Positions 28,342 through 41,390 of a DNA stretch of 64,000 nt are shown piece after piece. The notes under the pieces are model-generated. The model was not told the origin of the DNA and made no database searches. It was given only the letters and a program-made list of their open reading frames with translations. The stretch lies in NCBI GenBank assembly GCA_963693105.1, contig OY843752.1, positions 23,315 through 87,314 of the forward strand, in the 5' to 3' direction. The translations under genes were made by a program, and so were the position numbers. Positions within the stretch are counted from its first letter, which is position 1, and each line of letters opens with the position of its first letter. This stretch comes from an uncultured candidatus Porisulfidus sp. (GTDB taxonomy: Bacteria > Pseudomonadota > Gammaproteobacteria > Poriferisulfidales > Oxydemutatoraceae).

Positions 28342-29049
28342 TCATTTCAATATCTCCGTCAATTGCCTTACGGCCCTTTCCAGATTCTCATACAAAAGCG
28401 GTTTATAATATTTTCCCCTGTGAATCTCCTGCTTCACTTTTCTCTCACCTTCCAATAAGGTGATAATCTCAATCTTCACATCTTCAAAAAAAGACATCAG
28501 TGTATGCGTCGAGAAACTGCCCAATGTTACCTCGCTCAACTTGGAATAATCACCACCGAGTTGGCTTTCAAGCTGCACCAGTGCAAACTTCAATGCCGGA
28601 AATTGAGTTTTCAACAACCATGCATCAAAAAGTATACGTTTGAACATTGCATTTTCGGCATAGGCTTTGCACTCTATGGATAAGAGAAATTCATCTCTTT
28701 CATAAACACTGACATCTTGACTTATTTTGTAATTAATTTCTTGAAGATGATCTTTTAAGTAGTTTCTGACTTCCTCATTGGAGAGGTTCTCTACGTATTT
28801 GCGATTGATGGGAACCATGTATTTCCCTCTCGAGAAAATCAAATCATCAGGCTCTTTGCCCAGTTTTAGCCATGCTGCCATAACAAGTTTTTGAGTAATA
28901 TCCTCGACCAGTTTCCCCTTTCCCTGCCTTAGCATCCCTCCTGGCGCTCTGGTCTTTTGTCCCTGAGATTCTTCCCACATATTCTGAACGGTCTGCTTAT
29001 ATGCCTCCACTATGCCATTCAATATCTCCCTGTAACTATGATTCACCAT
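28342..29049 (-). CDS. Putative Type II restriction endonuclease (PD-ExK)
   Basis: 'YERDEFLLSIECKAY' D...E-x-K core. AT-rich. Stop/start abuts the upstream methyltransferase on the same strand. Confidence 0.5.
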   Translation of the reverse strand: MVNHSYREILNGIVEAYKQTVQNMWEESQGQKTRAPGGMLRQGKGKLVEDITQKLVMAAWLKLGKEPDDLIFSRGKYMVPINRKYVENLSNEEVRNYLKDHLQEINYKISQDVSVYERDEFLLSIECKAYAENAMFKRILFDAWLLKTQFPALKFALVQLESQLGGDYSKLSEVTLGSFSTHTLMSFFEDVKIEIITLLEGERKVKQEIHRGKYYKPLLYENLERAVRQLTEILK

Positions 29050-29052
29050 GAC

Positions 29053-30264
29053 TCAAAGTAGAATGCCTTTCAGGCGCTCCTCGGATTTCTCGCAATACTC
29101 TCTGGATATGTCAATTCCGAGATAATGCCTTCCCGTCATCTTGGAAACGGCGCAAGTCGTTCCGACGCCCGCAAACGGATCCAGAACCACGTCTTCGCGA
29201 TAACTGAACAGTTGAAGTACGCGCCGCGCTAGCTCCTCCGGAAACATCGCGGGGTGGCCGAATTTTTTCATCCTGCGCTCCGGCGCAATCGCCCACTTGC
29301 CGTAAACCCACTTTTTGAAATCATCGCCGACGATGTCTATTTTTTCCCGATCGCCGGCCTTCTTGAGAGAACCCTTGCAGAAAACCTCGATAAATTCCCA
29401 TGAGTATTTGAGATACGGGTTGCTGGGACTCTTCCAACTGCCCCACGCCGTGTACTTGCAATTGTAATTGTTTTTCTCCCACACAATTTCGCCTTTCCAG
29501 ATCATCTTGCGATTGATAAAGTAATTGCCGATGATGTGATGGCTGGGAATATAGTCTGAATAAAGCGGCTGGATATTGACCACGATCCTGCCGCCGTATT
29601 TCAACACACGGATGCACTCATCAAATACGGCAAACAATTTGTCGAAATAACTCTGCCAATAATGGTCGTCCTGCGCCTGATCACCGTACTCCAGCCCGAA
29701 GTTGTACGGCGGGGAAGTGAACACCAAGTCCACGCAATTGTCCGGCAATTTCTTCAGCTCCTCCGCACTGTCGCCACAGAGTATTCTGTCAAGAAACCCG
29801 GGTGGCAACTCATTGTTCTCTTCACAAAATTCGTTGTTTCTTGCGTAATAATACTTGCCCCGGTTCTCTTCTTTTTTTGCCCGGTTCTTTACCTTCCGCT
29901 CTTCGTTATAGCCCACAAAACGCCGTTTGCCGGAATGAAGACCGTAACTGCCGATGGATTCGATTTCCTCACAAACCTGATGCAACAGCGAAGGAGGCTC
30001 TCCGCAGATTTCATGCACTGCGGCTCTCATCGCAACCGTGTCAATCTCCCGTAGCCGGATATGAACCGTTTTCCCTCTCGCAATAATCTGCACCTCATCA
30101 GATCGAAAGCGGCTGTTGAAATCATCAATCTTCCCGGAAACATCCGCCGTAACCGGAGATGGAACAGCGAATGAGAGTTCTTTATAGGACGGTGTTTCTT
30201 CTTGCTGCATTGAATTGAGCGGCTGGCAGGTAACTGCCGCATCCCCTCTGTGGATTCTACACAA
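29053..30264 (-). CDS. DNA methyltransferase, beta-class amino-MTase (N4-cytosine or N6-adenine)
   Basis: Motif IV 'DLVFTSPPY' precedes motif I 'VLDPFAGVGTT' (beta permutation). AT-rich island. The true start may be the internal Met about 17 codons in. Confidence 0.75.
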   Translation of the reverse strand: MCRIHRGDAAVTCQPLNSMQQEETPSYKELSFAVPSPVTADVSGKIDDFNSRFRSDEVQIIARGKTVHIRLREIDTVAMRAAVHEICGEPPSLLHQVCEEIESIGSYGLHSGKRRFVGYNEERKVKNRAKKEENRGKYYYARNNEFCEENNELPPGFLDRILCGDSAEELKKLPDNCVDLVFTSPPYNFGLEYGDQAQDDHYWQSYFDKLFAVFDECIRVLKYGGRIVVNIQPLYSDYIPSHHIIGNYFINRKMIWKGEIVWEKNNYNCKYTAWGSWKSPSNPYLKYSWEFIEVFCKGSLKKAGDREKIDIVGDDFKKWVYGKWAIAPERRMKKFGHPAMFPEELARRVLQLFSYREDVVLDPFAGVGTTCAVSKMTGRHYLGIDISREYCEKSEERLKGILL

Positions 30265-30268
30265 AAAA

Positions 30269-31927
30269 TCAGTATTGCAGTATCAGAAACACCGCCAGCG
30301 CGGCGACGATGGCCATGATAAAAACCGACAACCTCGCGGAATCGCGCCGCGCCAGCGCGGAAAGTTGCAGCCACAGCATCCGGCCGGGGTCGCATCCGCC
30401 GCGCGCCCTTCGCAGCGCCGCGGCCAGCGGCGCTGCGAGCGGGCAAAGCAGCGACGGCAGCCTGCGGTAAAACCAGTCCACATCCAGGCTGATGGTTAAC
30501 GTGCGTTTCAGCAGCGGCAGCATCAGGAAAAAGGCCAGCGCCGACAACAGCAGCAGTTCAAGTTGCGCCGCAACATGCGGGCCGGTATAAGGCGCATAAT
30601 CAACCGGGTACGGCAACAGACCGTACAACAGCGACGGAAAGACACCGATCGCCAGGCACAGCACCGCGAAGAAAATCATCGCCAACTGCATGTTGACCGG
30701 CGGATCATCCGGCTCGTCGCCGGAGGGTTTCCTGCGAAAAAAGACAAACCACGGAAACTTGATTCCGGCGTGCAGAAAAACGCCGGCGGACGCCGCCACC
30801 AGCAAAAACCACGTCCACATCATCGCGGCGCCGTGCGCGGCCTCGCCAATCAGGGCCTTCGACACAAAGCCGGAGGTCAGCGGCATCGCCGAAATCGAGA
30901 CCGCGCCGATGACGCCGCAAATCGTCGTCACCTTCATGGTCGCGTACAGCCCCCCCAGTTCGCTGCATTTTCTGCGTCCGCTCATGTAAAGAACGCTGCC
31001 AGCCGACATCAGCAGCAACGCCTTGTAGATAATGTGCGCGGAAGCGTGGGCGGCGGCGCCGTTGACGGCCAGTTCGGTGCCGATGCCCGCACCCACCACC
31101 ATGAAGCCGACCTGATTGACGATGCTGTAAGCGAGAATGCGGCGCATGTCGTTTTCAAGCAGCGCATAGACAATGCCGTAAAAAATCATGTACAACCCGA
31201 TCGGCACCAGAATATCGGTGCCCGCAAACACCACCAGCAATGCAAACACCGCCGATTTCGTCGTGAACGCGGACAAAAACACCGTGCCGCCGGGGCTGGC
31301 CTCGGGATAGGCGTCGGCCACCCACGCCGACAGCGGCGGCGCGCCGGCGTTCAGCAAAACGCCCGCCAGAATCATCCACTCGTACAACGCATCCGGCGCG
31401 ACCAGCCGCAGGGTGGCGTCGCCGCTCTCGCCGACCAGCCCGGCGATGCCGTAGAGCAAAACCACGCCGCCCAGCGCGTGCAGCAGCATGTAACGCCTGC
31501 CCGCCGCCGCCGACGCCGGCGTCGCCGCCGAAAAAATAATCAATGTCGAGGCAAGCGCCATCAATTCCCAGAAAATGAAAAACGTGATGAAGTCACCGCA
31601 CAGCGAGACCATGACCGCGCTGCCGGCACACAGCGAGGCGCCGGCGAGTTCGCTCTTCTTCGCCTGCCTCATCACAAACATCATGCCGCCGAGAGCCATC
31701 ACCGAGAACGTGACCGCGAACAACCGCCCCAGCGGCGTCACCTGCAGCGGCGTGATGTCGTAGTCCATGAAACGCAAGTGCAGCGCGGCGCCCTCCGGCA
31801 GCAGCGCCGCAAACAGCAGCGTCAGCAACGGCGGCAGCAACAGCCACCTTTTCGCGCCGCCGACAAAACACACCAGCGGCGCCGCCGCCAACATGACGAG
31901 GCCGGGAGGGAAAATCCAGTCCATCAC
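30269..31927 (-). CDS. Mrp/complex-I antiporter-like subunit (MrpD/NuoL/M/N family), third of three paralogues
   Basis: Proton-pumping antiporter signature helices ('TKSAVFALLVVFAG', broken TM helices). Terminal gene of the cluster. Confidence 0.75.
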   Translation of the reverse strand: MMDWIFPPGLVMLAAAPLVCFVGGAKRWLLLPPLLTLLFAALLPEGAALHLRFMDYDITPLQVTPLGRLFAVTFSVMALGGMMFVMRQAKKSELAGASLCAGSAVMVSLCGDFITFFIFWELMALASTLIIFSAATPASAAAGRRYMLLHALGGVVLLYGIAGLVGESGDATLRLVAPDALYEWMILAGVLLNAGAPPLSAWVADAYPEASPGGTVFLSAFTTKSAVFALLVVFAGTDILVPIGLYMIFYGIVYALLENDMRRILAYSIVNQVGFMVVGAGIGTELAVNGAAAHASAHIIYKALLLMSAGSVLYMSGRRKCSELGGLYATMKVTTICGVIGAVSISAMPLTSGFVSKALIGEAAHGAAMMWTWFLLVAASAGVFLHAGIKFPWFVFFRRKPSGDEPDDPPVNMQLAMIFFAVLCLAIGVFPSLLYGLLPYPVDYAPYTGPHVAAQLELLLLSALAFFLMLPLLKRTLTISLDVDWFYRRLPSLLCPLAAPLAAALRRARGGCDPGRMLWLQLSALARRDSARLSVFIMAIVAALAVFLILQY

Positions 31928-31933
31928 CGCCGC

Positions 31934-32212
31934 TTACCCGTCGCCGCGCCCGTCATAATAGTCGTCCTTTCTCTTGAGGAACCAGCCCAGCGCCAGTGCC
32001 ACGACGATCAGCACGACACAGCTGGCGAAACCGAACCAGGCATAAAAGCCGAAACCAAAATCGGAGAAGCCGCCGACCAGAAACTCCAGCAGAACAATCA
32101 GGACGACACCTGCTCCAATCGCAGGCAGCGGAGGCTTTAATCCCACGATGTATCTCCCACCCCAATCGCGGGCAGCGGAGGTTTTAATCCCACGATGTAT
32201 CTCCCACCCCAA
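31934..32212 (-). pseudogene. Small membrane-protein gene between two MrpD-like genes, apparently frame-disrupted by the 47-bp tandem repeat
   Basis: The listed 92-aa ORF (TTG start inside the repeat) has a hydrophobic C-terminal two-thirds. A short ATG-initiated ORF 'MNWKPPLPAIGVGDTSWD*' overlaps the upstream gene stop (ATGA) and shares 'KPPLPAIG' with it in another frame. Confidence 0.3.
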
Positions 32213-32231
32213 TCGCGGGCAGCGGAGGTTT
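32124..32231. repeat. Tandem direct repeat, 47-bp unit x 2.3 copies (1 mismatch)
   Basis: Copy 1 at 32124-32170 and copy 2 at 32171-32217, 'ggcagcggagg(c/t)tttaatcccacgatgtatctcccaccccaatcgcg'. Partial third copy at 32218-32231. Confidence 0.85.
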
Positions 32232-32236
32232 CCAGT

Positions 32237-33724
32237 TCATGGCGCGTCTCCGGCGTTGCCGGCGGCGAAACCCGGAGCCCCGGCGATGAACCCGGCAATG
32301 CTGTCCACCGCGAAAAACAGCACGGCGCACATCAGCGCCGGCAACAGCATCGCAATCAGCATCGCCGCCGGCGCCTCGTTGCGCGCCACGGGAGCCGGCG
32401 CGGCCTGCGTGAAGAAAGCGCGGTAAATCACCGGCACGAGGTAGGCCGCGCTCAATACGCTGCCCGCGACCAGCACCGCCGCGGGAAGATACCCGCCGAC
32501 CGCGACCGAACCTTCGAGCAGAAACCACTTGCTGCTGAAACCGGCCAGCGGCGGCAAACCGATGATTACAAGCGAGCCGACGGTGAACAATCCCATCGTC
32601 CACGGCATGGTGCGGCCGATTCCGCCCAGTTCATCCAGCCGGGTTTTGCCGCTCGCCGTCTGAATAGCGCCCGCCGCGAAAAACAGCGTGATCTTGCCGA
32701 AGCCGTGCGCCAGCAGATGCAGCACCGCGCCCAGCAGCGCCGCCGGTTTCAGCAGCGCGGCGCCGAGAAGAATATAAGAAAGCTGGCTGACGGTCGAATA
32801 GGCGAGCAGTTTCTTCAGACTGCTCTGCCGCAGCGCGATGATCGAGGCGGCGATGATGGTAAAAGAGGCGATGTACACAAGCCATTCACCGGCGCCGGCG
32901 CCGGCCAGCAGATCAACGCCGAAAATATAGAGGATGACCTTGACTATCGTGAAGACACCGGCCTTGACCACGGCAACCGCGTGCAGCAGCGCGCTGACCG
33001 GCACCGGCGCGACCATCGCCCGCGGCAGCCAGCAGTGCAGCGGCATCACCGCGGCTTTCGAGGCGCCGAAGACGACCAGCAGCAGCAGCCATTTGACCTG
33101 CGCGTCCTCAAGGTGTCCGTCCAGTATGCCGCCGGACACGAAATCCAACGTCCCCGCGGCGTGATAAATCCACACCAGCGCGGCCAGCAGCAACACCGTC
33201 GAGGAACCGACCAGAATGCCCAGATAAATCCTGCCCGCCGACAGCGCCTCGCGGCTCTTGCCGTGCGTCACCAGCGGATACGTGCAAAGCGTCAGCACCT
33301 CGTAGAATATGAACAGCGTCAGCAGGTTGCCGGCGAACGCGACCGCCAGGGCGCAGCCGATGGCCAGGTTGTAATACACCAGAAACGACGTCATCCCGGG
33401 CACGCGGTTCTGGTAGAGATACGCCAGCGAATACAGCATGCTGACCGGCCACAGCAAACACACCAGGCCGGCGAAAATCAGGCCCACCGGCTCCGGCTCG
33501 AATGCGATGCCGGCGCCGGGCACGATTTCCGTCAGTTGCAGCGTCACCGGCGCGTCCGCCAGCATCACCAGCGCCGCCAGTGAAACAAAAGGCGCCAGCA
33601 GGTTCAGCGTGTCCCTCACCACGGGCATGCCGTGGAACAGCACCGTCAGCGCGGCCAGCACGAAAGGACTCGCCATGCACGCAATCAGCAGGGTCTCGTT
33701 CGTCATTGTGATCATCATCGTCAT
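32237..33724 (-). CDS. Mrp antiporter-like subunit D/NuoN family, paralogue 2
   Basis: Polytopic, conserved 'LAYS(T/S)V(S/A)Q' region. The overlapping plus/minus Arg-rich ORFs are rejected. Confidence 0.75.
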   Translation of the reverse strand: MTMMITMTNETLLIACMASPFVLAALTVLFHGMPVVRDTLNLLAPFVSLAALVMLADAPVTLQLTEIVPGAGIAFEPEPVGLIFAGLVCLLWPVSMLYSLAYLYQNRVPGMTSFLVYYNLAIGCALAVAFAGNLLTLFIFYEVLTLCTYPLVTHGKSREALSAGRIYLGILVGSSTVLLLAALVWIYHAAGTLDFVSGGILDGHLEDAQVKWLLLLVVFGASKAAVMPLHCWLPRAMVAPVPVSALLHAVAVVKAGVFTIVKVILYIFGVDLLAGAGAGEWLVYIASFTIIAASIIALRQSSLKKLLAYSTVSQLSYILLGAALLKPAALLGAVLHLLAHGFGKITLFFAAGAIQTASGKTRLDELGGIGRTMPWTMGLFTVGSLVIIGLPPLAGFSSKWFLLEGSVAVGGYLPAAVLVAGSVLSAAYLVPVIYRAFFTQAAPAPVARNEAPAAMLIAMLLPALMCAVLFFAVDSIAGFIAGAPGFAAGNAGDAP

Positions 33725-33727
33725 CGG

Positions 33728-35197
33728 TCAGCGCAGCAGCGTCTCGGCGATGTCGAGACAGGCTCGCGTCAACCACGACGGATTGACGCCGACAAAAAAA
33801 TTCACGGCGATGAGCGCCCAGGTCGTCAACAGCATCGCCGGCGGCGCTTCGCCGGCCTCGCCGGCCTCGCTCTGCCGGAAATAAGCGGCCTCCACCAGCC
33901 GCCAGCCGTAAGCCACACTCAACAGCGAACCGGCGAGGATGACAAACGCCAGCAGCCACAGGTTCATCTCCAGCACGGCGCTGACCAGATACCACTTGCT
34001 GACAAAACCCGAGGTCAGCGGTATGCCGACCAGGCTGACGACGCCGGCGACGATGGCCGCCGCCGTCCACGGCATGCGCTTCGACAGCCCGGCAAGGTCG
34101 GAAAGGCTGCAACCGCCCGCGCGGTAAGCGATGCAGCCGAGCGCCATGAACAACGAGACCTTGATGATCGCGTGGTTGAAAACGTGTATCAGGCCGGCGG
34201 CGACGCCGGCCTGCGTGGCCAGGCCGATGCCGAGCGCGATGTAGCCGATTTGCGCGACGCTGGAATAAGCCATCATGCGCTTGACCTGGTGCTGGAAGAA
34301 GGCGAGGCCGGAGCCGGCCACAATGGCGGCGGGCGCCAGCACCAGCATGATGTCCGGCAGCGCCGCCGGGAACGAGGCGGCGTCGAAGACCTCGAACAAA
34401 AGGCGAATCAATACGTAGAGCGCGACTTTCGTGCTGGTGCCGGAAAGAACCGCGGCGATGGCCGACGGCGCGTGGGCGTAGGCGTTCGGCAGCCACAGGT
34501 GCAGCGGGAAAAGCGCGGCCTTCAGCAACAGCCCGACGCCGATGAAACCGAGCGCGGCGAGAACGGCGGGGGAGCCCAGCAGCGGTTGCAGCCGCGGCGC
34601 CATGTCCGACAGGTTCAACGTGCCGGTCACCAGATAGAGATAACCGATGCCGAGAAGAAACAGCGCCGCGCCGGTGGTCCCCATCAACAGGTAGCGGTAG
34701 GCCGCGGTCAGCGCGCGCGGCGCGCGCGCCGACGCCACCAGCGCGTAGCCCGCGATCGAGGCCATTTCCAGGAACACGAAGATATTGAACAAGTCGTCGG
34801 TCATGGCGACGCCGAAAAAACCGGACTGGCAAATCAGCAGCGCGCTGTAAACCGGGCCAAGGCGGCGCCCGCAAAGCTCCTTGTCGAAACTGCGCCGGGC
34901 GTAAACAACGCCGCCCAGAAAGACCGTGCTCAACATCAGCACCATCAACGCATTGATCTGCGCCACCTTGTAGGCAATCCCCCACGGCGGCGCCCAGCCG
35001 CCGATGGCGTACTCCAGCACCAGGCCCTCGCCGGTGCGCACAAACAGCGCGACACTGAACACAAACGCGGCGACGCTGACAACCAGCACCATCCGCCACA
35101 CCAGGCGGTCGTCTCGCACCAGCAGGCCAAGCGCCGCGCCGAGCAACGGCAGCACCACCAGCAGAACCGGCAATTGGAGAAGCAGCGCGTCGTTCAT
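33728..35197 (-). CDS. Mrp antiporter-like subunit D/NuoM family, paralogue 1
   Basis: 'MMAYSSVAQIGYIALG', 'HLWLPNAY' motifs typical of MrpD/NuoM. Confidence 0.75.
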   Translation of the reverse strand: MNDALLLQLPVLLVVLPLLGAALGLLVRDDRLVWRMVLVVSVAAFVFSVALFVRTGEGLVLEYAIGGWAPPWGIAYKVAQINALMVLMLSTVFLGGVVYARRSFDKELCGRRLGPVYSALLICQSGFFGVAMTDDLFNIFVFLEMASIAGYALVASARAPRALTAAYRYLLMGTTGAALFLLGIGYLYLVTGTLNLSDMAPRLQPLLGSPAVLAALGFIGVGLLLKAALFPLHLWLPNAYAHAPSAIAAVLSGTSTKVALYVLIRLLFEVFDAASFPAALPDIMLVLAPAAIVAGSGLAFFQHQVKRMMAYSSVAQIGYIALGIGLATQAGVAAGLIHVFNHAIIKVSLFMALGCIAYRAGGCSLSDLAGLSKRMPWTAAAIVAGVVSLVGIPLTSGFVSKWYLVSAVLEMNLWLLAFVILAGSLLSVAYGWRLVEAAYFRQSEAGEAGEAPPAMLLTTWALIAVNFFVGVNPSWLTRACLDIAETLLR

Positions 35198-35209
35198 CGG
35201 CCCGGCCGT

Positions 35210-35572
35210 TCAGTCGTCCTCGTATTCGAGGTCGCCGATCAGGCGCTCGTCGAGACTGCCGTAAACCCGGCTGATGCGGATGGCAAGCGCCAGTCCCAGC
35301 GCGGTGGAGGCGACGGCGACGACTATCGCCGTCAGAATCAGCACGTGCGGCAGCGGGTTGGAATACACCGTGACTTCGGGCGTCAGAATCGGCGCGCTGC
35401 CGCCGCCGACCTTGCCCATCAATATAAAGAAGATGAAAATCGAAACCTGGAACAGGTTCAGCCCGATCAGTTTCTTCACCAGATTGTCGTAAGCGATCAT
35501 GATGTAGATGCCCGTCATCATCAGGAAGACGACGGCGAGATGGTGGTAGCCCTGCAGCAGATTCTCGATCAT
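35210..35572 (-). CDS. mrpC: Mrp subunit C (NuoK-like)
   Basis: 120 aa, 3 TM, 'LTAIVVAVASTALGLALAIRI' NuoK/MnhC-like. Confidence 0.75.
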   Translation of the reverse strand: MIENLLQGYHHLAVVFLMMTGIYIMIAYDNLVKKLIGLNLFQVSIFIFFILMGKVGGGSAPILTPEVTVYSNPLPHVLILTAIVVAVASTALGLALAIRISRVYGSLDERLIGDLEYEDD

Positions 35573-36039
35573 GCCGAGTCGCTCGCGTCCATCAACAGGT
35601 AAAAAATCAGCATGACGACGCCGACGATGGTGACGCCGATGCCGAGTTCGATGGCGAAGATGCCGATGTGCTGCCCCGACAGGGGCTGCTGCGCGAGCGC
35701 CGCATAGTCGAGGAAAGCACCGCCCCTCAGCAGGGCGGCGACGCCGGTCAGCGCGTAGAGCAAGACGCCAAGCGCGGACAGCACCTCGGCCGTGCGCCGC
35801 GACAAAACCGCCGACGCCTTCTCGACGCCGTAGATCAGCGCGTACAGAACCAGGCCGACGGAGAAAATGACGCCGGCCTGAAAACCGCCGCCCGGACCGA
35901 AATCGCCGTGGAACTGCACATACAGCGCGTAGAGCAACGTCGTCGGCACCAGCGTGTGGGCGGTTTCGCGCAGAATCGGGTTTTGGGTGATGAAGGCCAG
36001 GTCACTCCTCCCCGCGCTGTTCAAACAAGCCCAGCACAA
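35569..36039 (-). CDS. mrpB: Mrp subunit B (MnhB domain)
   Basis: 'HGDFGPGGGFQAGVIFS' MnhB signature. The true start may lie downstream of the listed one. Confidence 0.7.
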   Translation of the reverse strand: MCWACLNSAGRSDLAFITQNPILRETAHTLVPTTLLYALYVQFHGDFGPGGGFQAGVIFSVGLVLYALIYGVEKASAVLSRRTAEVLSALGVLLYALTGVAALLRGGAFLDYAALAQQPLSGQHIGIFAIELGIGVTIVGVVMLIFYLLMDASDSA

Positions 36040-36541
36040 TCAGGACGCCGACGCCGGCGGTGAAAATCACGCAGACCTCCCCCAGCGTGTCGAGACCCCG
36101 GTAACTCGCCAGCACCGACGTGACCACGTTGGGCGGCCCGACTTCGGCGGCCGAATGTTCAAGGTAGTGGCGCGCGACATGATCGTGCAGCGCCAGCGAC
36201 GCGTCGCCCAGCCAGGGGAAATCCAGCATCGAGTAGAACAGCAGCCAGCCGGTGGCCGCCGCCAACGTCAGCCCCAGCACCTTGCGCGACGCCGCGTAGG
36301 CGTACTGTTTGCCGGTGGCGGCGATGGTCGTCAGAAAGAAAATCGTGCTGATGCCGGCGCCGACGGCGGCCTCAGTGAAGGCGACATCGGGCGCGTCCAG
36401 CGACAGGAACAGCGCCGCCGTCAGCAGGCTCGACATGCCCGCCAGAAAAGCCGCGGAAAACAGGTTGTCGGTTCTGGCAATGATGACCGCCGCGACGGCC
36501 GACAGCGACAACAACGCGCATCCAAGCAGTTGGCCGCTCAT
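36002..36541 (-). CDS. MrpB-like N-terminal module (DUF4040/MbhD-E-like small membrane subunit)
   Basis: Hydrophobic 4-TM protein. Start chosen at the Met forming an ATGA overlap with the mrpG stop; the listed ORF extends to 36652. Confidence 0.5.
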   Translation of the reverse strand: MSGQLLGCALLSLSAVAAVIIARTDNLFSAAFLAGMSSLLTAALFLSLDAPDVAFTEAAVGAGISTIFFLTTIAATGKQYAYAASRKVLGLTLAAATGWLLFYSMLDFPWLGDASLALHDHVARHYLEHSAAEVGPPNVVTSVLASYRGLDTLGEVCVIFTAGVGVLIVLGLFEQRGEE

Positions 36542-36828
36542 GGTTCCGGGTAACTTTGCAGATAGGTTTTGAAAATCGCATGGATCGCCGCCGGCGCGGT
36601 AATCAGCAAAAACACGATGATCAGCGTAATCTTCAGCGCGACCATTCCCCACCCCGATTGCAGCGCCAGCGCGATGAGGATTTGCAGCGTGCCGAACACA
36701 TCAATCAGCCCGGCGGCGTGCGCGCGCGTCGTGAAATCCGGCATCCGCAGCATGCCGACGGCGCCGATCAGGATAAAGGCGCAGCCTGAAACCGCCAGCA
36801 CCCAGGCGGCGGCGTCAACCAGGTTCAT
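36538..36828 (-). CDS. mrpG: Mrp subunit G
   Basis: 96 aa, 3 TM, 'LRMPDFTTRAHAAG' PhaG/MnhG-like. Confidence 0.65.
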   Translation of the reverse strand: MNLVDAAAWVLAVSGCAFILIGAVGMLRMPDFTTRAHAAGLIDVFGTLQILIALALQSGWGMVALKITLIIVFLLITAPAAIHAIFKTYLQSYPEP

Positions 36829-37150
36829 CGCCGCCCTCCCGCAGGGCCGGCCACCTCAGCCGGCGCTTGCTGAACAATCTCAAAATGGCGATGGTCGCGA
36901 CAAAATTCACCAGCGCGTAGAGCAGCGCGATGTCCACGAAAACATCGCGCCGCGACAGCAGCCCGATGCCGGCAATCAGCGCAATCGAGAGCGTTCCGAA
37001 AACGTTGATTGCAAGCACCTGGTCAAACAGGCGCCGCGCGCGCGCGGTGTGTATCAACACCAGCAACATCGCCAGCAGCAGCACGCCCAGTACCATGCCC
37101 AGTATCATGTCCAATGTCATGTCCAACATCCCGTCCGCGCCATCCGTCAC
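36815..37150 (-). CDS. mrpF: Mrp subunit F
   Basis: About 110 aa, 3 TM small subunit in the expected position. Confidence 0.6.
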   Translation of the reverse strand: MTDGADGMLDMTLDMILGMVLGVLLLAMLLVLIHTARARRLFDQVLAINVFGTLSIALIAGIGLLSRRDVFVDIALLYALVNFVATIAILRLFSKRRLRWPALREGGDEPG

Positions 37151-37632
37151 CCCAGCCGCGAGACCTGCTTTGCGAATTCGCCCTTGCGCGCTCTCTCCGC
37201 CGCCTCTTCCGTCAGCGCGTGCACCCGGATTGTGTCGCCCCGGAAATCGGCGCTGATGGTGCCGGGCGTCAGCGTGATCGAGTTGGCCTGGACGACGCGC
37301 AACAGACCGTCGTCGCGCACCGCCTCGATGTCAATAAAACGCGGGCTGATGGGCAGTTTCGGGTTCAGAATTCTGCGCGCCACGTCGCAGTTGGCGGCGA
37401 CAATCCGCCACAACAGCCAGACCGCGTAAAACGGCAGCCTCAGATAAAAGCCGGGGCGGTGCTGGCCGGCGCCGATGACCCCCATGCGCGACGACAGCGC
37501 CGTCACCAGCGCCGCGCTGGCCGCCCCCAGCGAGACCATCAGCGCAGCGTAATGGCCGGAGATGGCGAGCCAGAAGCCCAGCAACAGCAGGAAAACAAAA
37601 AAGCGTCTGGGATGGTTTGCGGATGCGTTCAT
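37147..37632 (-). CDS. mrpE: Mrp subunit E
   Basis: 161 aa MnhE-like. Start forms an ATGA overlap with the hemY stop. Confidence 0.65.
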   Translation of the reverse strand: MNASANHPRRFFVFLLLLGFWLAISGHYAALMVSLGAASAALVTALSSRMGVIGAGQHRPGFYLRLPFYAVWLLWRIVAANCDVARRILNPKLPISPRFIDIEAVRDDGLLRVVQANSITLTPGTISADFRGDTIRVHALTEEAAERARKGEFAKQVSRLG

Positions 37633-38783
37633 TTTATTTGTGAGGGCTCATCATACAGGTTCTCTACAAGCCACGCGTCGTAACCGGGCTTGACCGCAAG
37701 ACTCTTCTTCAAAAAGCCGCGGCCACGATCCGGCTCGCCCGACTGCTTGTACAGCCGCGCCATGCACAACAGCAAGGCGGCATCGTCAGGCCGCCGCGCC
37801 AGCCACCGCTGCACATTCGGGATTCTGCGCGACAAATCACCGCCGCGCAATATACCGTACTGGCGGATTGCATCCTCGCCCCAGCCGTCCTCGATGATTT
37901 TTTCCAGATGCCGGGCGGCATCACCGGCGGCGCCCGCCCGCTCCAGCAGGCCCGCGTATTCAAGCAAAAGCGCCCGTCCGGGCACAAAACCCGGGCGCCG
38001 CAGGGCGTCTTCCCACGTCCGCCGCAGTTGCGCCGCATCACCGGCGGCGGCGGCACGCGCGAGCAGCGACGCGGTCGCGCGCGTCTCAATGCGGCGGCAA
38101 AATGCCGGCCTGTGCGACAGTGCGCGGCGCGATGGCGGCTGCAACAAGGTCCCGGCGGCCTGCTCCATGCAGTGCTCATCGCGCTCGCACAACCCGGCCA
38201 GCAATTCAACGGCGCGCACATTGCCGGGCTGTTTGCCGAGCAGTTCGATCAACTGGCGCACGGCCTGCGTGGGCAGTTCGCCGCGCGCCGCCAGTTCGGC
38301 CCCGACCATCGCCTCCGCATGGCCGGCGGGACGCCACTGTGCGGCCAGTTCCAACACCTTGCGCGCGCCGTCGTTGTCGCCGACACGCAGCGCGCAGCGC
38401 GCCGCCAGCAGGCAGGCGGCGCGCTGCGCCGACGTGCCGGGCGTTTTCGCAATCTCGAGCAACGGCTTGTACGCTTCGGCGTAATCGCCTGCGACATACG
38501 CCAACAGCGCGTCGGTCAGGCGCCGCGAGGTCCGCCTTTTGTAATAACTCTGGTGCCCGGCGAACAGGCGTCCGGGCAGCCGCCACAACGAAACCAGCAG
38601 CCGCAACAGCAGCCCCAGCGCCAGCCACGCGGCGACCAGCGCCGTCACCACGACCCACAAACCGGCCTCAACGCGCCATTCGCCGACCGTGACGGCGACA
38701 TCGCCCGGATACTGCAACGACAGCAGCACAATCGCGGTAACACCCGCGAAAACCAACGTCAACGCCAACAGGATTCGCTTCAT
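37629..38783 (-). CDS. hemY: HemY-like protoheme IX biogenesis protein (N-terminal TM pair plus TPR)
   Basis: Last gene of hemCDXY. TPR-like repeats. Confidence 0.75.
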   Translation of the reverse strand: MKRILLALTLVFAGVTAIVLLSLQYPGDVAVTVGEWRVEAGLWVVVTALVAAWLALGLLLRLLVSLWRLPGRLFAGHQSYYKRRTSRRLTDALLAYVAGDYAEAYKPLLEIAKTPGTSAQRAACLLAARCALRVGDNDGARKVLELAAQWRPAGHAEAMVGAELAARGELPTQAVRQLIELLGKQPGNVRAVELLAGLCERDEHCMEQAAGTLLQPPSRRALSHRPAFCRRIETRATASLLARAAAAGDAAQLRRTWEDALRRPGFVPGRALLLEYAGLLERAGAAGDAARHLEKIIEDGWGEDAIRQYGILRGGDLSRRIPNVQRWLARRPDDAALLLCMARLYKQSGEPDRGRGFLKKSLAVKPGYDAWLVENLYDEPSQIK

Positions 38784-39643
38784 TCAGCCCCCGTTTGCGA
38801 TGGCGCGAACGCGGCGCCGAGCGATGGAGGATGCCATTGCATATCCAGCGAGCGCAGACGCGCCAGCGCCTCGTGCAACTCCGCATCTTCGCCGCTTCTT
38901 TCCCCGGCCAGACGCATGATGTCAGCGGTCAACACGTCAAATGCCTGCGCGTCGTTTTCCAAAACGGCAAGCCGCGCGCGCAGCAGCATGTGGCGCAGCA
39001 GCCTCGTGTCGTCTTGCGTCAGTGTCTTGTGCCGCTCAACGCGGACAGCGGCTTTCAACTGATCCGGCAGGCGCGCGAGCCAGCTCCGCCAGTAACCCGT
39101 ATCCGGGCCCGCCCCGTCCGCCGATGCCCGCGACGGCGCGGACTCCAGCATCGCCAGCAGTTCACCGAGGACGGGCATCGCCCGGCGCGGCGACCTGGCC
39201 ATGTATTTGGACAGCCTCGCAATGTCGTCGTTCAACGCCTGCCTCTCCGTCTCCATATCCGGCGCCCCCTCTATCAGGCGCAGAGTCTGTTGCAGCAGTT
39301 CGAGCGCCTCGTGCGGTGCGTGCGCGATTTCAAGCAAACGGCGCGCCGCCGACACGCGGTAATTCAGGTCGTCTGAGGTGAGGGTTTCATGCAGGCGCGC
39401 GGCGCGCTCTTCGGAAACCGTCAGGCGGCGCTCCAGTTCCTCGATGGCCTGCTGCGCCTCCCGGCGGCGCAATTCAGCCCGCTCATCGGCCGGCCCGCCG
39501 GCGGCGTTTTGCGCGGGCGGCGGCGCGGCGACGGGCGCTTCGGCGACCATCGCGGGCCACGGCGCATACCGCATCCACAGCAACGCCAGCACTGACGCCG
39601 CGACCACCGCCAAAGCCGGCACGATGAGTTTCCGTGAAATCAT
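38780..39643 (-). CDS. hemX: HemX-like membrane-anchored coiled-coil protein
   Basis: N-terminal TM, Ala/Glu-rich coiled coil. Position between hemD and hemY. Confidence 0.7.
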   Translation of the reverse strand: MISRKLIVPALAVVAASVLALLWMRYAPWPAMVAEAPVAAPPPAQNAAGGPADERAELRRREAQQAIEELERRLTVSEERAARLHETLTSDDLNYRVSAARRLLEIAHAPHEALELLQQTLRLIEGAPDMETERQALNDDIARLSKYMARSPRRAMPVLGELLAMLESAPSRASADGAGPDTGYWRSWLARLPDQLKAAVRVERHKTLTQDDTRLLRHMLLRARLAVLENDAQAFDVLTADIMRLAGERSGEDAELHEALARLRSLDMQWHPPSLGAAFAPSQTGAE

Positions 39644-39683
39644 ACGGCTTCATTATAAGAGTTGGCCGCTCCATCCGGCGGAA

Positions 39684-40460
39684 TCAGGGATTCCGCCTCC
39701 ATTGCACGACGGCAGCGACCACATCCTCGTCCACCGGGCTGCGCGCAACAATGGGCGGCGCGCTGAAACCGAGGCGCCCGTGCAACCCGGCCATGGCGGC
39801 GCTGCCGAGCGCCACCGTGATTCTGAAAAGCGCGTCGTGCGAGCCGGGCGCGGTCAAATCCAGCAGGTTTTGCAGGCTGTCGGCGCTCGCCGACAAGATG
39901 ACGTCGGGATCGCCGGGCGCGCCAAACGACAAGCGCACGCCGGGCGGCTTGCGCCGCCGGTACACCTCGACATAATCCACCTCCACGCCGCGCGCGCGCA
40001 AAGTCCGCGCCAACAGCTCGTTGCCGCCTTCGCCGCGAAACACCAGCACCCTGCCGCGGTCCAGGCTTTTCATCAGGCCGGTTTCCAGCAGCGCCTCGCT
40101 GCCGGTGGCCTGCGCCGGATTGACGATGCTGTCCACTCCCTCGCGCGCGAGACGCTCGCCGGTCTTGACGCCGACCGCGGCGACCGGCACGTCCGGCGGC
40201 AGGCCGACACCCGCGCCACGCAGCAGATTAAATCCCGCCTCCACCGCATTGCGGCTGATAAAGACGAACAACCGGTAACGCCGCAGATCGCGCACCATCC
40301 CGAGATTTTCGGGCGCCGCACTCAAGTCCACGATCTCCATGCACGGGCGGCGTATCACTTCGGCGCCCGCCCTTTCGAGCAGCGCGGACAAATGCCCGGC
40401 GAGATGCGCCGGGCGGGTGACCATCACGCGCAGATTTTCAAGCGGCGGACGCTGCGCCAT
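39684..40460 (-). CDS. hemD: Uroporphyrinogen-III synthase
   Basis: About 258 aa HemD fold. Follows hemC. Confidence 0.8.
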   Translation of the reverse strand: MAQRPPLENLRVMVTRPAHLAGHLSALLERAGAEVIRRPCMEIVDLSAAPENLGMVRDLRRYRLFVFISRNAVEAGFNLLRGAGVGLPPDVPVAAVGVKTGERLAREGVDSIVNPAQATGSEALLETGLMKSLDRGRVLVFRGEGGNELLARTLRARGVEVDYVEVYRRRKPPGVRLSFGAPGDPDVILSASADSLQNLLDLTAPGSHDALFRITVALGSAAMAGLHGRLGFSAPPIVARSPVDEDVVAAVVQWRRNP

Positions 40461-40463
40461 GAT

Positions 40464-41390
40464 TCAGACGGCGAACTGCGCGAGCAACTCGCCCGCCCCC
40501 TGCGACAGCAACGCTTCGGCGGCGGCGGCGGCGAGTTCCGCGCCCCGCTCCGCCGCGCCGCTGCGGTCGTCGTGCAGGATGCGCCGCCCCTCGGCGTCGC
40601 CGACCAGCGCGCGCAAACGCAAAACGCCGTCGTGCAGCGAAGCGTGAGCGGCCAGCGGCCAGCGGCAGTCGGCGCCGAGACGGCGCGCCAGCGCGCGCTC
40701 GGTCTCGACACAAACGCGCGTGTGCGCATCGTCCAGCGCATGGATGAACGGCACAACCCCGTCGTCACCGTCGCGGCACTCGATGCCGATGGCGCCCTGG
40801 CCGGCGGCGGGCAGGCTGATGTCGTGCGGCAATGTGCGGCGAATGCGCGCGGCGAGGCCGAGTCGTTTGAGACCGGCGCCGGCGAGAATCAGGCCGTCGT
40901 ATTCACCGGCGTCGAGCTTTTCCAGGCGGGTGCCGACATTGCCGTGCAGTTCCACGACCGAAAGACGCGGATAACGGCGCCGGATTTGACACCGCCGGCG
41001 CAGGCTGGCGGTGCCGATGACCGCGTTGTCCGGCATTTGTTCCGGGCTTTCGTGGGCATTGCAAACAAAGACATCCGACGCATCCTCGCGCGCCATCATC
41101 GCCGCGATGACCAGGCCGCCGGGCAATTGCGCGGGCAGGTCCTTCATCGAATGAACCGCGATATCGGCGCGCCCGTCGAACAGGCCGCGCTCCAGTTCCC
41201 GCACAAACAACCCCTTGCCGCCGCCGTCCGTCGTGCGTACGCGCGCGCCCGCCGTGTCGCCGCGCGTCGTCATCGGCACGGTTTCGACCCGCAACTCAGG
41301 AAACCGCGCCCGCAACGCCGCCGCCACCAGCCCGGCCTGACACAACGCCAGCGGACTTTTGCGCGTGGCAATACGAATTCTCGTGTGCAT
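40464..41390 (-). CDS. hemC: Hydroxymethylbilane synthase (porphobilinogen deaminase)
   Basis: 'IRIATRKSPLALCQ' N-terminus. Cofactor-binding Cys region. Confidence 0.9.
   Translation of the reverse strand: MHTRIRIATRKSPLALCQAGLVAAALRARFPELRVETVPMTTRGDTAGARVRTTDGGGKGLFVRELERGLFDGRADIAVHSMKDLPAQLPGGLVIAAMMAREDASDVFVCNAHESPEQMPDNAVIGTASLRRRCQIRRRYPRLSVVELHGNVGTRLEKLDAGEYDGLILAGAGLKRLGLAARIRRTLPHDISLPAAGQGAIGIECRDGDDGVVPFIHALDDAHTRVCVETERALARRLGADCRWPLAAHASLHDGVLRLRALVGDAEGRRILHDDRSGAAERGAELAAAAAEALLSQGAGELLAQFAV

What the first reader, a model, noticed from the sequence alone, without database searches (positions are those of the whole stretch)
32124..32236. 47-bp tandem repeat (2.3 copies) that frame-shifts a small membrane-protein gene overlapping the mrpD-paralogue stop: possible copy-number phase switch
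Two perfect-but-one copies of a 47-bp unit plus a 14-bp partial copy lie immediately 3' of the 32237 gene stop. In the minus orientation an ATG overlapping that stop (ATGA) opens 'MNWKPPLPAIG...', which then hits a TAA inside the repeat. The same residues KPPLPAIG reappear, continuing into a hydrophobic 70-aa membrane peptide, in a different frame after the repeat. Because 47 is not divisible by 3, gaining or losing one unit changes the reading frame by 1 (+47 shifts by 2, -47 by 1). Only certain copy numbers give a contiguous ORF; the repeat may additionally supply an in-repeat stop or TTG start. Each unit is flanked by a 14-bp duplicate ('aaacctccgctgcc'), consistent with slipped-strand or recombinational amplification. 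This looks like either a recent disruptive insertion or a contingency locus controlling a small subunit of the Mrp-like complex.
Basis: seen in the sequence. Interest (0 to 1): 0.6.

Follow-up and report, generated by a model that had tools for sequence, protein, structure and literature searches.

The report
Variable repeat of a gene's start region
A 47-base tandem repeat between two genes of an ion-pump (Mrp-type) operon is a duplicated copy of the next gene's own ribosome-binding site, start codon and first codons; its copy number differs between strains, but the small membrane-protein gene stays intact, so it is not an on/off frameshift switch.

Summary
The repeat is real. There are two identical 47-nt units (32138-32231, minus strand) plus a 23-nt partial copy (32115-32137), and nothing comparable elsewhere in the window.

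Each unit carries a Shine-Dalgarno GGGAG, a 7-nt spacer, a GTG and about nine codons of the small gene. The last GTG (32146) opens an intact 70-aa two-helix membrane protein. This protein is conserved and under purifying selection (dN/dS 0.04-0.18). It sits between the same two MrpD paralogues in 86 of 102 distant loci.

The extra units form two 18-codon mini-ORFs. The first starts in the ATGA overlap with the mrpD stop, and each ends in a TAA 4 nt after the next GTG (GTGGGATTAA).

A strain 99.3-99.8% identical in the flanks has exactly one unit fewer. Relatives carry 0 to 3 extra units (period 45, last unit 47), and the gene is intact in all of them.

So the copy-number variation is confirmed and the frameshift phase switch is not supported. 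The best reading is a tolerated, locally derived VNTR that may keep translational coupling through a stop-over-start relay. It works like mycobacterial MIRU repeats but is not a member of that family. Interest is modest.

The parts
32237..33724 (-). mrpD-like gene (paralogue D2, 495 aa). Its stop TGA (32239-32237) overlaps the ATG of mini-ORF 1 as ATGA.
   Evidence: Pfam Proton_antipo_M 7.8e-56; NCBIfam matches to 'cation/H+ antiporter subunit D' models, below their cut-offs; coordinates checked.
32248..32251 (-). Shine-Dalgarno GGAG, 7 nt upstream of the junction ATG and inside the last codons of mrpD-like D2.
   Evidence: Sequence read directly. The same GGAG(A/G) plus 7 nt plus xTG geometry is present in relatives without a repeat (L112, L113).
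32184..32240 (-). Mini-ORF 1: ATG, 18 codons in all (MNWKPPLPAIGVGDTSWD), TAA. The start overlaps the mrpD stop (spacing -4). The stop lies 4 nt after GTG 32193 (GTGGGATTAA, spacing -10).
32185..32231 (-). Repeat unit 1 (47 nt): AAACCTCCGCTGCCCGCGATTGGGGTGGGAGATACATCGTGGGATTA. It contains SD GGGAG 32205-32201, spacer 32200-32194 and GTG 32193-32191.
32137..32193 (-). Mini-ORF 2: GTG, 18 codons in all (MGLKPPLPAIGVGDTSWD), TAA. The stop lies 4 nt after the real start GTG 32146.
32138..32184 (-). Repeat unit 2 (47 nt), identical to unit 1. It contains SD GGGAG 32158-32154, spacer 32153-32147 and the real start GTG 32146-32144. A unit's length (47 nt, either copy) is absent from the 99%-identical strain L115.
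32115..32137 (-). Partial third copy (23 nt, 2 mismatches), equal to codons 4-11 of the small gene. This is the source sequence of the repeat.
31934..32146 (-). Small membrane-protein gene (GTG start, 70 aa, stop TAA 31936-31934): MGLKPPLPAIGAGVVLIVLLEFLVGGFSDFGFGFYAWFGFASCVVLIVVALALGWFLKRKDDYYDGRGDG. It has two hydrophobic stretches and matches no Pfam, NCBIfam or PDB family.
   Evidence: Exact product P0001 is in public collections. Homologues start M[D/N/E/G]LKPPLPAI. dN/dS is 0.04-0.18. No family found.
30269..31927 (-). mrpD-like gene (paralogue D3, 552 aa), the downstream neighbour.
   Evidence: Pfam Proton_antipo_M; NCBIfam NF009310 at 586.7 bits against a cut-off of 564.
33728..37632 (-). 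Upstream part of the same operon: mnhE 37147-37632, mrpF 36815-37150, mnhG 36538-36828, mbhD/mbhE-like 36002-36652, mnhB 35569-36039, mnhC/nuoK-like 35210-35572, mrpD-like D1 33728-35197.
   Evidence: Pfam hits.

Best explanation
This is a locus-specific variable-number tandem repeat. It arose by tandem duplication of the small gene's own translation-initiation region: the Shine-Dalgarno site, the start codon and the first codons. It sits where that gene originally overlapped the stop of the upstream mrpD-like gene.

The original duplication covered 45 nt, the first 15 codons. A 2-nt gain then made the 47-nt unit. In a 47-nt unit, an ORF that begins at one start codon runs out of frame and stops 4 nt past the next start codon.

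In this window two identical 47-nt units give a chain along the mRNA:
- the mrpD stop overlaps the ATG of mini-ORF 1 (ATGA);
- the TAA of mini-ORF 1 lies just after the GTG of mini-ORF 2;
- the TAA of mini-ORF 2 lies just after the GTG of the intact 70-aa gene.

Each start also has its own GGGAG 7 nt upstream.

Units are gained and lost by slippage or unequal recombination between copies. This never breaks the gene, because the last unit always supplies a complete start in frame. The array is therefore tolerated and drifts in copy number.

What is shown: the anatomy, the intact gene, the copy-number differences between strains and species, the local origin of the repeat, and the lack of constraint on the mini-ORF peptides.

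What is inferred: that ribosomes pass from mrpD through the mini-ORFs to the small gene by termination-reinitiation or by unmasking the SD, and that the array is close to neutral.
For: Anatomy:
- Each unit has SD, 7-nt spacer and GTG. Each mini-ORF stops at position +7 of the next start.

The gene is intact and real:
- The exact product P0001 is on record and homologues start M[D/N/E/G]LKPPLPAI.
- dN/dS of the gene core is 0.04-0.18.
- The D2-small-D3 gene order holds in 86/102 distant loci.

The ancestral junction was an overlap:
- 48 of 77 distant loci have an in-frame start in a 4-nt xTGA-type overlap.
- None of them has a tandem repeat at the junction.

Copy-number variation:
- L115 is 99.3-99.8% identical in the flanks and differs by exactly one 47-nt unit.
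- In relatives the distance from the junction start to the real start is 0 (L112/113), 86 (L114), 128 (L001), 131 (L110/111) and 176 (L002-4, L006). The gene is intact in all.

Shared origin of the repeat:
- In relatives the spacing between successive start positions is 45, 45, 47, with the last unit always 47 as in the window.
- The window's 17-nt tail matches the relatives' tail at 11/17 positions but its own gene at only 6/17.

Loss as well as gain:
- In a neighbour-joining tree of the flanks, the repeat-free alleles nest inside repeat-bearing ones. This implies a clean collapse back to a GTGA overlap.

Bridging ORFs:
- In every repeat-bearing relative one ORF runs from the GTGA at the mrpD stop to a TGA at +7 of the real start.
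- Its peptide is not conserved (dN/dS 0.39-1.83).

Known biology:
- NTGA overlaps, short 'delivery' ORFs and MIRU repeats are described as translational-coupling architectures in PMC12548453.
Against: - The open bridging frame is weak evidence on its own. The DNA is GC-rich and a second frame is also free of stops in most relatives.
- The stop at +7 follows automatically from the Leu-Lys codons (YTG AAA or TTA AAR) of the gene.
- A -10 stop/start overlap is less favourable for coupling than -4 according to the review. Because each start has its own SD, initiation may simply be independent of the mini-ORFs.
- Nothing here measures translation.
- Long persistence of at least one extra unit across lineages, and independent expansions of 45-nt and 47-nt units, could also mean the array is useful rather than neutral.
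- The second identical unit in the window rests on one assembly; the reads were not available.
Confidence: 0.7

Rival explanations
1. Copy-number rheostat. The array is kept by selection because each added unit inserts another termination-reinitiation step, or another SD-bearing entry point. This would set how much small subunit is made per MrpD. Strain-level copy-number differences would then tune complex stoichiometry.
For: - At least one extra unit has persisted since the split of lineages 83-89% identical in the flanking genes, and the 47-nt last unit is shared.
- Expansions were independent: 45-nt units in relatives and 47-nt units here.
- Strains differ by one unit.
- Coupling efficiency is known to depend on stop/start spacing (PMC12548453).
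Against: - No expression data exist.
- A clean collapse to zero units is tolerated in L112/L113.
- In the L001 lineage the array has the same length in 8 assemblies.
- Older copies decay: their GTG becomes GCG and their peptides drift. This looks like relaxed constraint.
Confidence: 0.14
2. One reading: a contingency locus in which gain or loss of a 47-nt unit shifts the reading frame and switches the small membrane protein on and off.
For: - The unit length is not a multiple of 3.
- The two units are identical and so prone to slippage.
- Copy number differs between near-identical strains.
Against: - Every unit carries its own SD and GTG in frame with whatever follows it, so the last unit always opens the full ORF.
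- Alleles with 0, 1, 2 and 3 extra units all encode an intact protein.
- Relatives use 45-nt units, which are divisible by 3.
- The array is invariant in length across 8 assemblies of one lineage.
Confidence: 0.04
3. The repeat is a structured RNA or a repeated binding site for a regulator or sRNA in the mRNA between the two genes, and the ORF geometry is incidental.
For: - Within a unit, CUCC of the Pro-Pro codons can pair with the GGAG of the SD (fold).
- The L001 region folds slightly better than shuffled sequences (z = -1.99).
Against: - The window and L115 fold no better than shuffles (z = +0.24 and -0.20).
- The consensus fold of the last unit is weak (-8.5 kcal/mol, covariation term -0.66).
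- There is no Rfam match in the repeat and no promoter-like site.
- The SD-pairing partners are not in the same alignment columns in the two lineages.
Confidence: 0.05
4. The second identical unit in the window is an assembly artefact, or the mini-ORFs encode functional micropeptides.
For: - Identical tandem copies are a classic source of assembly error.
- The mini-ORFs have good SDs.
Against: - Arrays of 1 to 3 extra units occur in independent assemblies from NCBI, ENA, JGI and Logan.
- The window allele and the L115 allele each lie on a contig longer than 1.4 Mb.
- Bridging-peptide sequences drift at dN/dS 0.39-1.83, and their internal starts are lost in older copies.
Confidence: 0.04

Closest known systems
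MIRU-VNTR loci of mycobacteria (Supply et al. 1997, as summarised in PMC12548453)
   Same: - Tandem repeats of about 40-100 bp lying between co-oriented genes of an operon.
- They contain a short ORF whose start and stop overlap the stop and start of the flanking genes, so insertion has little effect on expression.
- Copy number differs between strains.
   Different: - MIRUs are a dispersed, apparently mobile family found at many loci. This repeat is made from the downstream gene's own start region.
- It occurs at one locus only (one site in the 64-kb window), and only in one clade.
- The downstream overlap is -10 (GTGNNNNTRA), not -4.
- There is no sequence relationship to MIRUs.
Leader-cistron translational coupling, natural (NTGA overlaps, 'delivery' uORFs) and engineered (bicistronic design), as reviewed in PMC12548453
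   Same: A short ORF that carries the SD of the next gene inside its own coding sequence and terminates at or next to that gene's start codon.
   Different: - Here the leader cistron is a duplicated copy of the gene's own 5' end.
- There can be several in series.
- Coupling itself has not been demonstrated.
Repeat-mediated phase variation (contingency loci) in pathogens
   Same: Identical tandem units whose number changes by slippage, with a unit length not divisible by three.
   Different: Copy-number change does not alter the frame of the expressed gene, because each unit brings its own start. All observed alleles are 'on'.
Mrp/Mnh multisubunit cation:proton antiporter operons, MBH-like gene order (the comparison of gene order is from my own knowledge)
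   Same: The operon encodes MnhE, MrpF, MnhG, MbhD/E-like, MnhB, MnhC and three MrpD-like subunits.
   Different: The small 70-aa protein between D2 and D3 belongs to no described subunit family.

Membership tests
Phase-variable contingency locus (frameshift type) | A change in repeat copy number moves the expressed ORF in and out of frame with its start codon. | tested here: not met
   Each unit has its own SD and GTG. The ORF is intact at start-to-start distances of 0, 47, 86, 94, 128, 131 and 176 nt.
Phase-variable contingency locus (frameshift type) | Copy-number heterogeneity within a population or clone. | not testable with these tools
   No reads were available. Only assemblies could be compared: two strains differ by one unit, and 8 assemblies of another lineage have the same array length.
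MIRU-type intra-operonic VNTR | A tandem repeat of tens of bp between co-oriented operon genes. | tested here: met
   A 47-nt unit lies between mrpD-like D2 and the small gene.
MIRU-type intra-operonic VNTR | An ORF inside the repeat whose start and stop overlap the flanking stop and start. | tested here: met
   ATGA at the upstream side and GTGGGATTAA at each downstream start. Relatives have GTGA and GTGGAYYTGA.
MIRU-type intra-operonic VNTR | Copy-number polymorphism between strains. | tested here: met
   The window has two units and L115 has one, at 99.3-99.8% flank identity.
MIRU-type intra-operonic VNTR | An interspersed family with related units at many loci of the genome. | tested here: not met
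   The unit occurs only at 32138-32231 in the 64-kb window, and it is derived from the adjacent gene's first codons. The rest of the genome was not available.
Translational coupling by termination-reinitiation | The stop of the upstream ORF overlaps or abuts the start of the downstream ORF. | tested here: met
   Spacing is -4, -10 and -10 along the chain. Spacing classes are as defined in PMC12548453.
Translational coupling by termination-reinitiation | Downstream translation depends on upstream translation. | not testable with these tools
   This needs reporter or ribosome-profiling experiments.
Mrp/Mnh-type antiporter operon | Co-oriented genes for MnhE, F, G, B, C and MrpD/A-like subunits. 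| tested here: met
   Pfam MNHE, MrpF_PhaF, PhaG_MnhG_YufB, MbhD+MbhE, MnhB, Oxidored_q2 and three Proton_antipo_M hits. NF009310 is above its cut-off for D3.
Structured RNA family (Rfam) | A match to a curated covariance model, or a fold better than shuffled sequence with covariation. | tested here: not met
   No Rfam hit in the repeat. z = +0.24 and -0.20. The covariation term is -0.66.

The most novel reading that the evidence does not exclude
The array is a selected 'translational relay'. It would be a series of self-copying start cassettes that passes ribosomes from MrpD to the small subunit. The number of cassettes would set subunit stoichiometry and would be adjusted between strains of this (apparently sponge-associated) symbiont by slippage. 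That would make it an analogue dial rather than an on/off switch.
Probability: 0.12. Interest if true: 0.55.

Novelty: new variant of a known kind. Interest (0 to 1): 0.3.

Why it matters
- **A natural series.** Alleles with 0, 1, 2 and 3 extra units show how a tandem duplication that hits a gene's start can be harmless. The duplicated piece carries a complete ribosome-binding site and start, and it leaves a stop right after the next start.
- **Convergence with MIRUs.** Mycobacterial MIRU repeats reach the same solution as mobile elements. Here it arises from the gene's own sequence, which suggests the architecture is an easy evolutionary outcome at overlapping gene junctions.
- **Annotation.** This kind of repeat can be mistaken for a frameshifted or disrupted gene. 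The 70-aa protein is a conserved, unnamed partner of a widespread Mrp-like operon.
- **Typing.** The locus would also serve as a strain-typing marker for this symbiont clade.

Tried and rejected
- **Structured RNA.** Folding of the window, L115 and L001 regions gave z = +0.24, -0.20 and -1.99. Local folds per locus differ. The consensus fold of the last unit is weak with almost no covariation. Rejected as the main explanation.
- **Known RNA family or promoter.** There is no Rfam hit in the repeat, only a sub-threshold CcsR1 match inside mrpD, and no sigma-70-like site.
- **Functional micropeptide.** The bridging peptides drift (dN/dS 0.39-1.83) and older copies lose their start codons.
- **The open bridging frame as proof of selection.** Rejected as inconclusive. 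A second frame is also open in most loci, and the stop at +7 is a by-product of the Leu-Lys codons.
- **Naming the small protein.** Pfam, NCBIfam and a PDB profile search found nothing significant.
- **Exact look-ups.** Searches for the window's own MrpD and for P0001 found no contig on record.
- **Metagenome scan.** It returned only distant relatives without repeats.
- **Provenance of L006.** I looked for it in the sponge-microbiome paper PMC6742649, but the bin name is not in the main text. The sponge association of the clade is therefore only my reading of the record title.
- **Literature.** A search for 'tandem duplication of a translation initiation region' gave only unrelated mitochondrial-genome papers.

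Full report
**1.

Tandem Repeats Finder reports one array at 32115-32231: period 47, 2.5 copies, 97% matches, score 220. This is by far the strongest array in the 64-kb window.

Read on the minus strand, which is the coding strand here, there are two units, 32231-32185 and 32184-32138. They are identical at 47 of 47 positions. A partial third copy follows at 32137-32115, 23 nt long with 2 mismatches.

The lag-47 self-match spans 70 positions with two mismatches. The longest exact run for any lag from 20 to 100 elsewhere in the window is 19. The unit is not expected by chance: there were 0 matches in 100 shuffles.

ATG 32240 overlaps the stop of the upstream gene as ATGA. It opens MNWKPPLPAIGVGDTSWD and ends at a TAA inside the repeat. 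KPPLPAIG recurs in the frame of the hydrophobic ORF. The partial copy is 23 nt rather than 14.

**2. Context**

All the relevant genes lie on the minus strand and form an Mrp/Mnh-type operon (Pfam and NCBIfam):

| Gene | Coordinates |
|---|---|
| mnhE | 37147-37632 |
| mrpF | 36815-37150 |
| mnhG | 36538-36828 |
| mbhD/mbhE-like fusion | 36002-36652 |
| mnhB | 35569-36039 |
| mnhC/nuoK-like | 35210-35572 |
| mrpD-like D1 | 33728-35197 |
| mrpD-like D2 | 32237-33724 |
| the repeat | 32115-32231 |
| small ORF | 31934-32146 |
| mrpD-like D3 | 30269-31927 |

**3. What a unit contains**

Each 47-nt unit reads AAACCTCCGCTGCCCGCGATTGG-GGTGGGAG-ATACATC-GTG-GGATTA. That is codons 4-11 of the small gene, then a Shine-Dalgarno GGGAG, a 7-nt spacer, a GTG, and codons 2-3. 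The junction ATG has the same arrangement: GGAG, then 7 nt, then ATG.

Three start sites therefore follow one another at 47-nt intervals: ATG 32240, GTG 32193 and GTG 32146.
- The first opens an 18-codon ORF, 32240-32184.
- The second opens another 18-codon ORF, 32193-32137.
- Each of these ends in a TAA at positions 8-10 counted from the next GTG (GTGGGATTAA).
- The third GTG opens an uninterrupted 70-codon ORF ending at TAA 31936-31934.

They change the interpretation.

**4. The small gene is real and starts at the last GTG**

A search of 5.8 billion proteins found 25 relatives.
- The best, P0001, is exactly the GTG-32146 product. It is recorded from a 1.83-Mb contig in NCBI and ENA.
- Close relatives begin MDLKPPLPAI, MNLKPPFPAI or MELKPPLPAI. 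More distant ones share invariant FGF.AWFGF..C...LKR.DDYY.
- dN/dS of codons 3-64 is 0.04-0.18.
- In 86 of 102 distant loci the gene lies between two MrpD-like genes. These loci include Thiothrix, Leucothrix, Cocleimonas, Anderseniella and others. The upstream neighbour is best matched by D2 and the downstream one by D3.
- The protein matches no Pfam, NCBIfam or PDB family.

It is therefore a conserved but unnamed small membrane protein of this operon type.

**5. Relatives show what the repeat is**

In 48 of 77 distant loci the small gene has an in-frame start in a 4-nt overlap with the stop of the upstream long ORF. None of them has a tandem repeat at the junction. The overlap is thus the ancestral arrangement.

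Within the close clade the junction varies. All of these are uncultured Gammaproteobacteria. One record is titled 'isolate PNGst_S_binSS2', which I read as a sponge MAG, but I could not verify that. The table gives the distance from the start codon overlapping the D2 stop to the real start.

| Locus | Distance (nt) |
|---|---|
| L112, L113 (GTGA overlap, MNLKPPFPAII) | 0 |
| L115 | 47 |
| L114 | 86 |
| the window | 94 |
| L001 | 128 |
| L110, L111 | 131 |
| L002, L003, L004, L006 | 176 |

In the relatives the period is 45 and the copies have diverged (81-94% matches). Spacings between successive start-equivalent positions are 45, 45, 47. The last unit is always 47 nt, as in the window.

The 45-nt unit corresponds to the first 15 codons of the gene, M-N/D-L-K-P-P-L-P-A-I-I-A-G-V-V. 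The GGGAGG that now serves as SD corresponds to the former A-G-V codons.

The window's 17-nt tail (GGGGTGGGAGATACATC) matches the relatives' tail at 11 of 17 positions, but its own gene at only 6 of 17. Together with the shared 47-nt length, this indicates that at least one extra unit predates the split of lineages. Those lineages are now only 83-89% identical in the flanking genes.

The repeat is therefore old and locally derived. It is not a recent insertion.

**6. Copy number does change, in both directions**

- L115 (ENA ERZ22155170, a 1.48-Mb contig) is 99.3%, 99.4% and 99.8% identical to the window in the three flanking segments compared. In the array it differs by exactly one 47-nt unit plus two substitutions.
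- In a neighbour-joining tree of the flanks, the repeat-free alleles L112 and L113 are sister to L110/L111 (131 nt). They sit inside a group with L114 (86 nt). The zero-copy state there is most simply a secondary collapse that restored a GTGA overlap.
- Against rapid switching, eight assemblies of the L001 lineage all have the same array length, 128 nt. These are L001 and L116-L122, and they come from seven further samples. The seven new ones are identical in sequence.

**7. Why this is not a frameshift switch**

In every allele seen, with 0, 1, 2 or 3 extra units, the last unit supplies an SD and a start in frame with an intact gene. A 47-nt step changes the frame only relative to the upstream starts, and these are not needed.

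In the relatives the internal units are multiples of three. The claim that only certain copy numbers give a contiguous ORF is true only for an ORF counted from the ATGA.

**8. How it most likely works**

What is shown is the chain of stop/start overlaps. In the window it is ATGA (spacing -4), then GTGGGATTAA twice (spacing -10). In each repeat-bearing relative a single ORF runs from the GTGA at the D2 stop through all copies to a TGA at +7 of the real start.

A recent review (PMC12548453) gives the relevant background.
- NTGA is the commonest coupling architecture.
- Coupling weakens as the overlap grows.
- Short ORFs can 'deliver' ribosomes to a downstream gene.
- Mycobacterial MIRU repeats insert at start codons so that an ORF within them stays coupled to the gene (Supply et al. 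1997).

By inference, the extra units here are translated as short bridging ORFs. These would keep the small gene coupled to mrpD, and each start can also recruit ribosomes through its own SD.

The bridging peptides are not conserved (dN/dS 0.39-1.83 against 0.04-0.18 for the gene). Older copies lose their GTG. If anything is selected, it is the act of translation and not the product.

The caveats are these.
- The DNA is GC-rich and a second frame is also stop-free in most relatives.
- The stop at +7 is an automatic consequence of the Leu-Lys codons.
- No expression data exist.

My estimate is that the array is tolerated and close to neutral. A dosage-tuning role cannot be excluded (probability about 0.12-0.14).

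**9. Rivals tested**

- Structured RNA: folds are no better than shuffles in the window and in L115 (z = +0.24 and -0.20). The consensus fold is weak and has almost no covariation.
- There is no Rfam family and no promoter-like site in the repeat.
- Assembly artefact: this is unlikely for the phenomenon as a whole, because arrays occur in independent NCBI, ENA, JGI and Logan assemblies. The window's second identical unit, however, has not been checked against reads.

**10. Comparison and novelty**

The locus works like a MIRU-type intra-operonic VNTR and like a natural bicistronic 'leader cistron' design. It is not a MIRU. It is not interspersed, it is derived from the adjacent gene, and it has a -10 rather than a -4 downstream overlap.

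I rate it a new variant of a known kind, of modest interest (0.3). It is a tidy natural example of why duplications of a complete start region are harmless. It also warns against annotating such junctions as frameshifted genes.

Noticed in passing
L001 3214-3247; L002 3195-3269 (relatives of window 31934-31960): In relatives the small protein has a C-terminal tail of Gly/Asp/Arg-rich repeats encoded by a 12/24-nt in-frame tandem repeat. Its length varies from 85 to 112 aa, even among proteins clustered at 90% identity. The window and L115 lack the tail. They also lack the ATGA-type overlap that relatives have between the small gene and D3; here there is a short gap instead (GGGTAAGCGGCGGTGATG).
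   Followed up: partly
L002 2784-2825 (equivalent to the 3' end of window gene 32237-33724): In some relatives the last codons of mrpD-like D2, just upstream of the junction, carry another in-frame 12-nt tandem repeat (GATGCCGGGGGC, 3.1 copies). L004 differs from L002 and L003 by 24 nt of gaps in the 700 nt upstream of the junction. The whole junction region seems repeat-prone in this clade.
   Followed up: no
window 28342-30264: A low-GC island (0.42-0.50 against about 0.63 around it) carries an N6/N4 DNA methyltransferase (29053-30264, Pfam N6_N4_Mtase) and an unassigned 235-aa ORF (28342-29049). It lies between mrpD-like D3 and recG. The methyltransferase is also present at that position in L115. 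In L002 and L003 a 107-aa ORF and recG follow D3 instead. This looks like an acquired restriction-modification module.
   Followed up: partly
window 31934-32146 and loci L007-L108: The 70-90-aa two-helix protein with the motif FGF.AWFGF..C...LKR.DDYY is conserved between the second and third MrpD paralogues of this operon type. It occurs in many Gamma- and Alphaproteobacteria (86/102 loci) but has no Pfam, NCBIfam or PDB family. It is a candidate unnamed subunit.
   Followed up: partly
window 32330-32415 (-): A sub-threshold Rfam match to CcsR1 (19.6 bits against a gathering score of 65.3, E = 0.031) lies inside the coding sequence of mrpD-like D2. It is most likely chance.
   Followed up: no
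window 33835-33878 and 35039-35079: Two further short tandem repeats (period 23 with 1.9 copies, and period 21 with 2.0 copies) lie inside mrpD-like D1. They were not examined.
   Followed up: no
window 37629-41390 (-): Upstream of the Mrp-like operon on the same strand are haem-biosynthesis genes: a HemY_N/TPR protein 37629-38783, an unassigned 287-aa ORF 38780-39643, hemD-like 39684-40460 and hemC-like 40464-41390.
   Followed up: no
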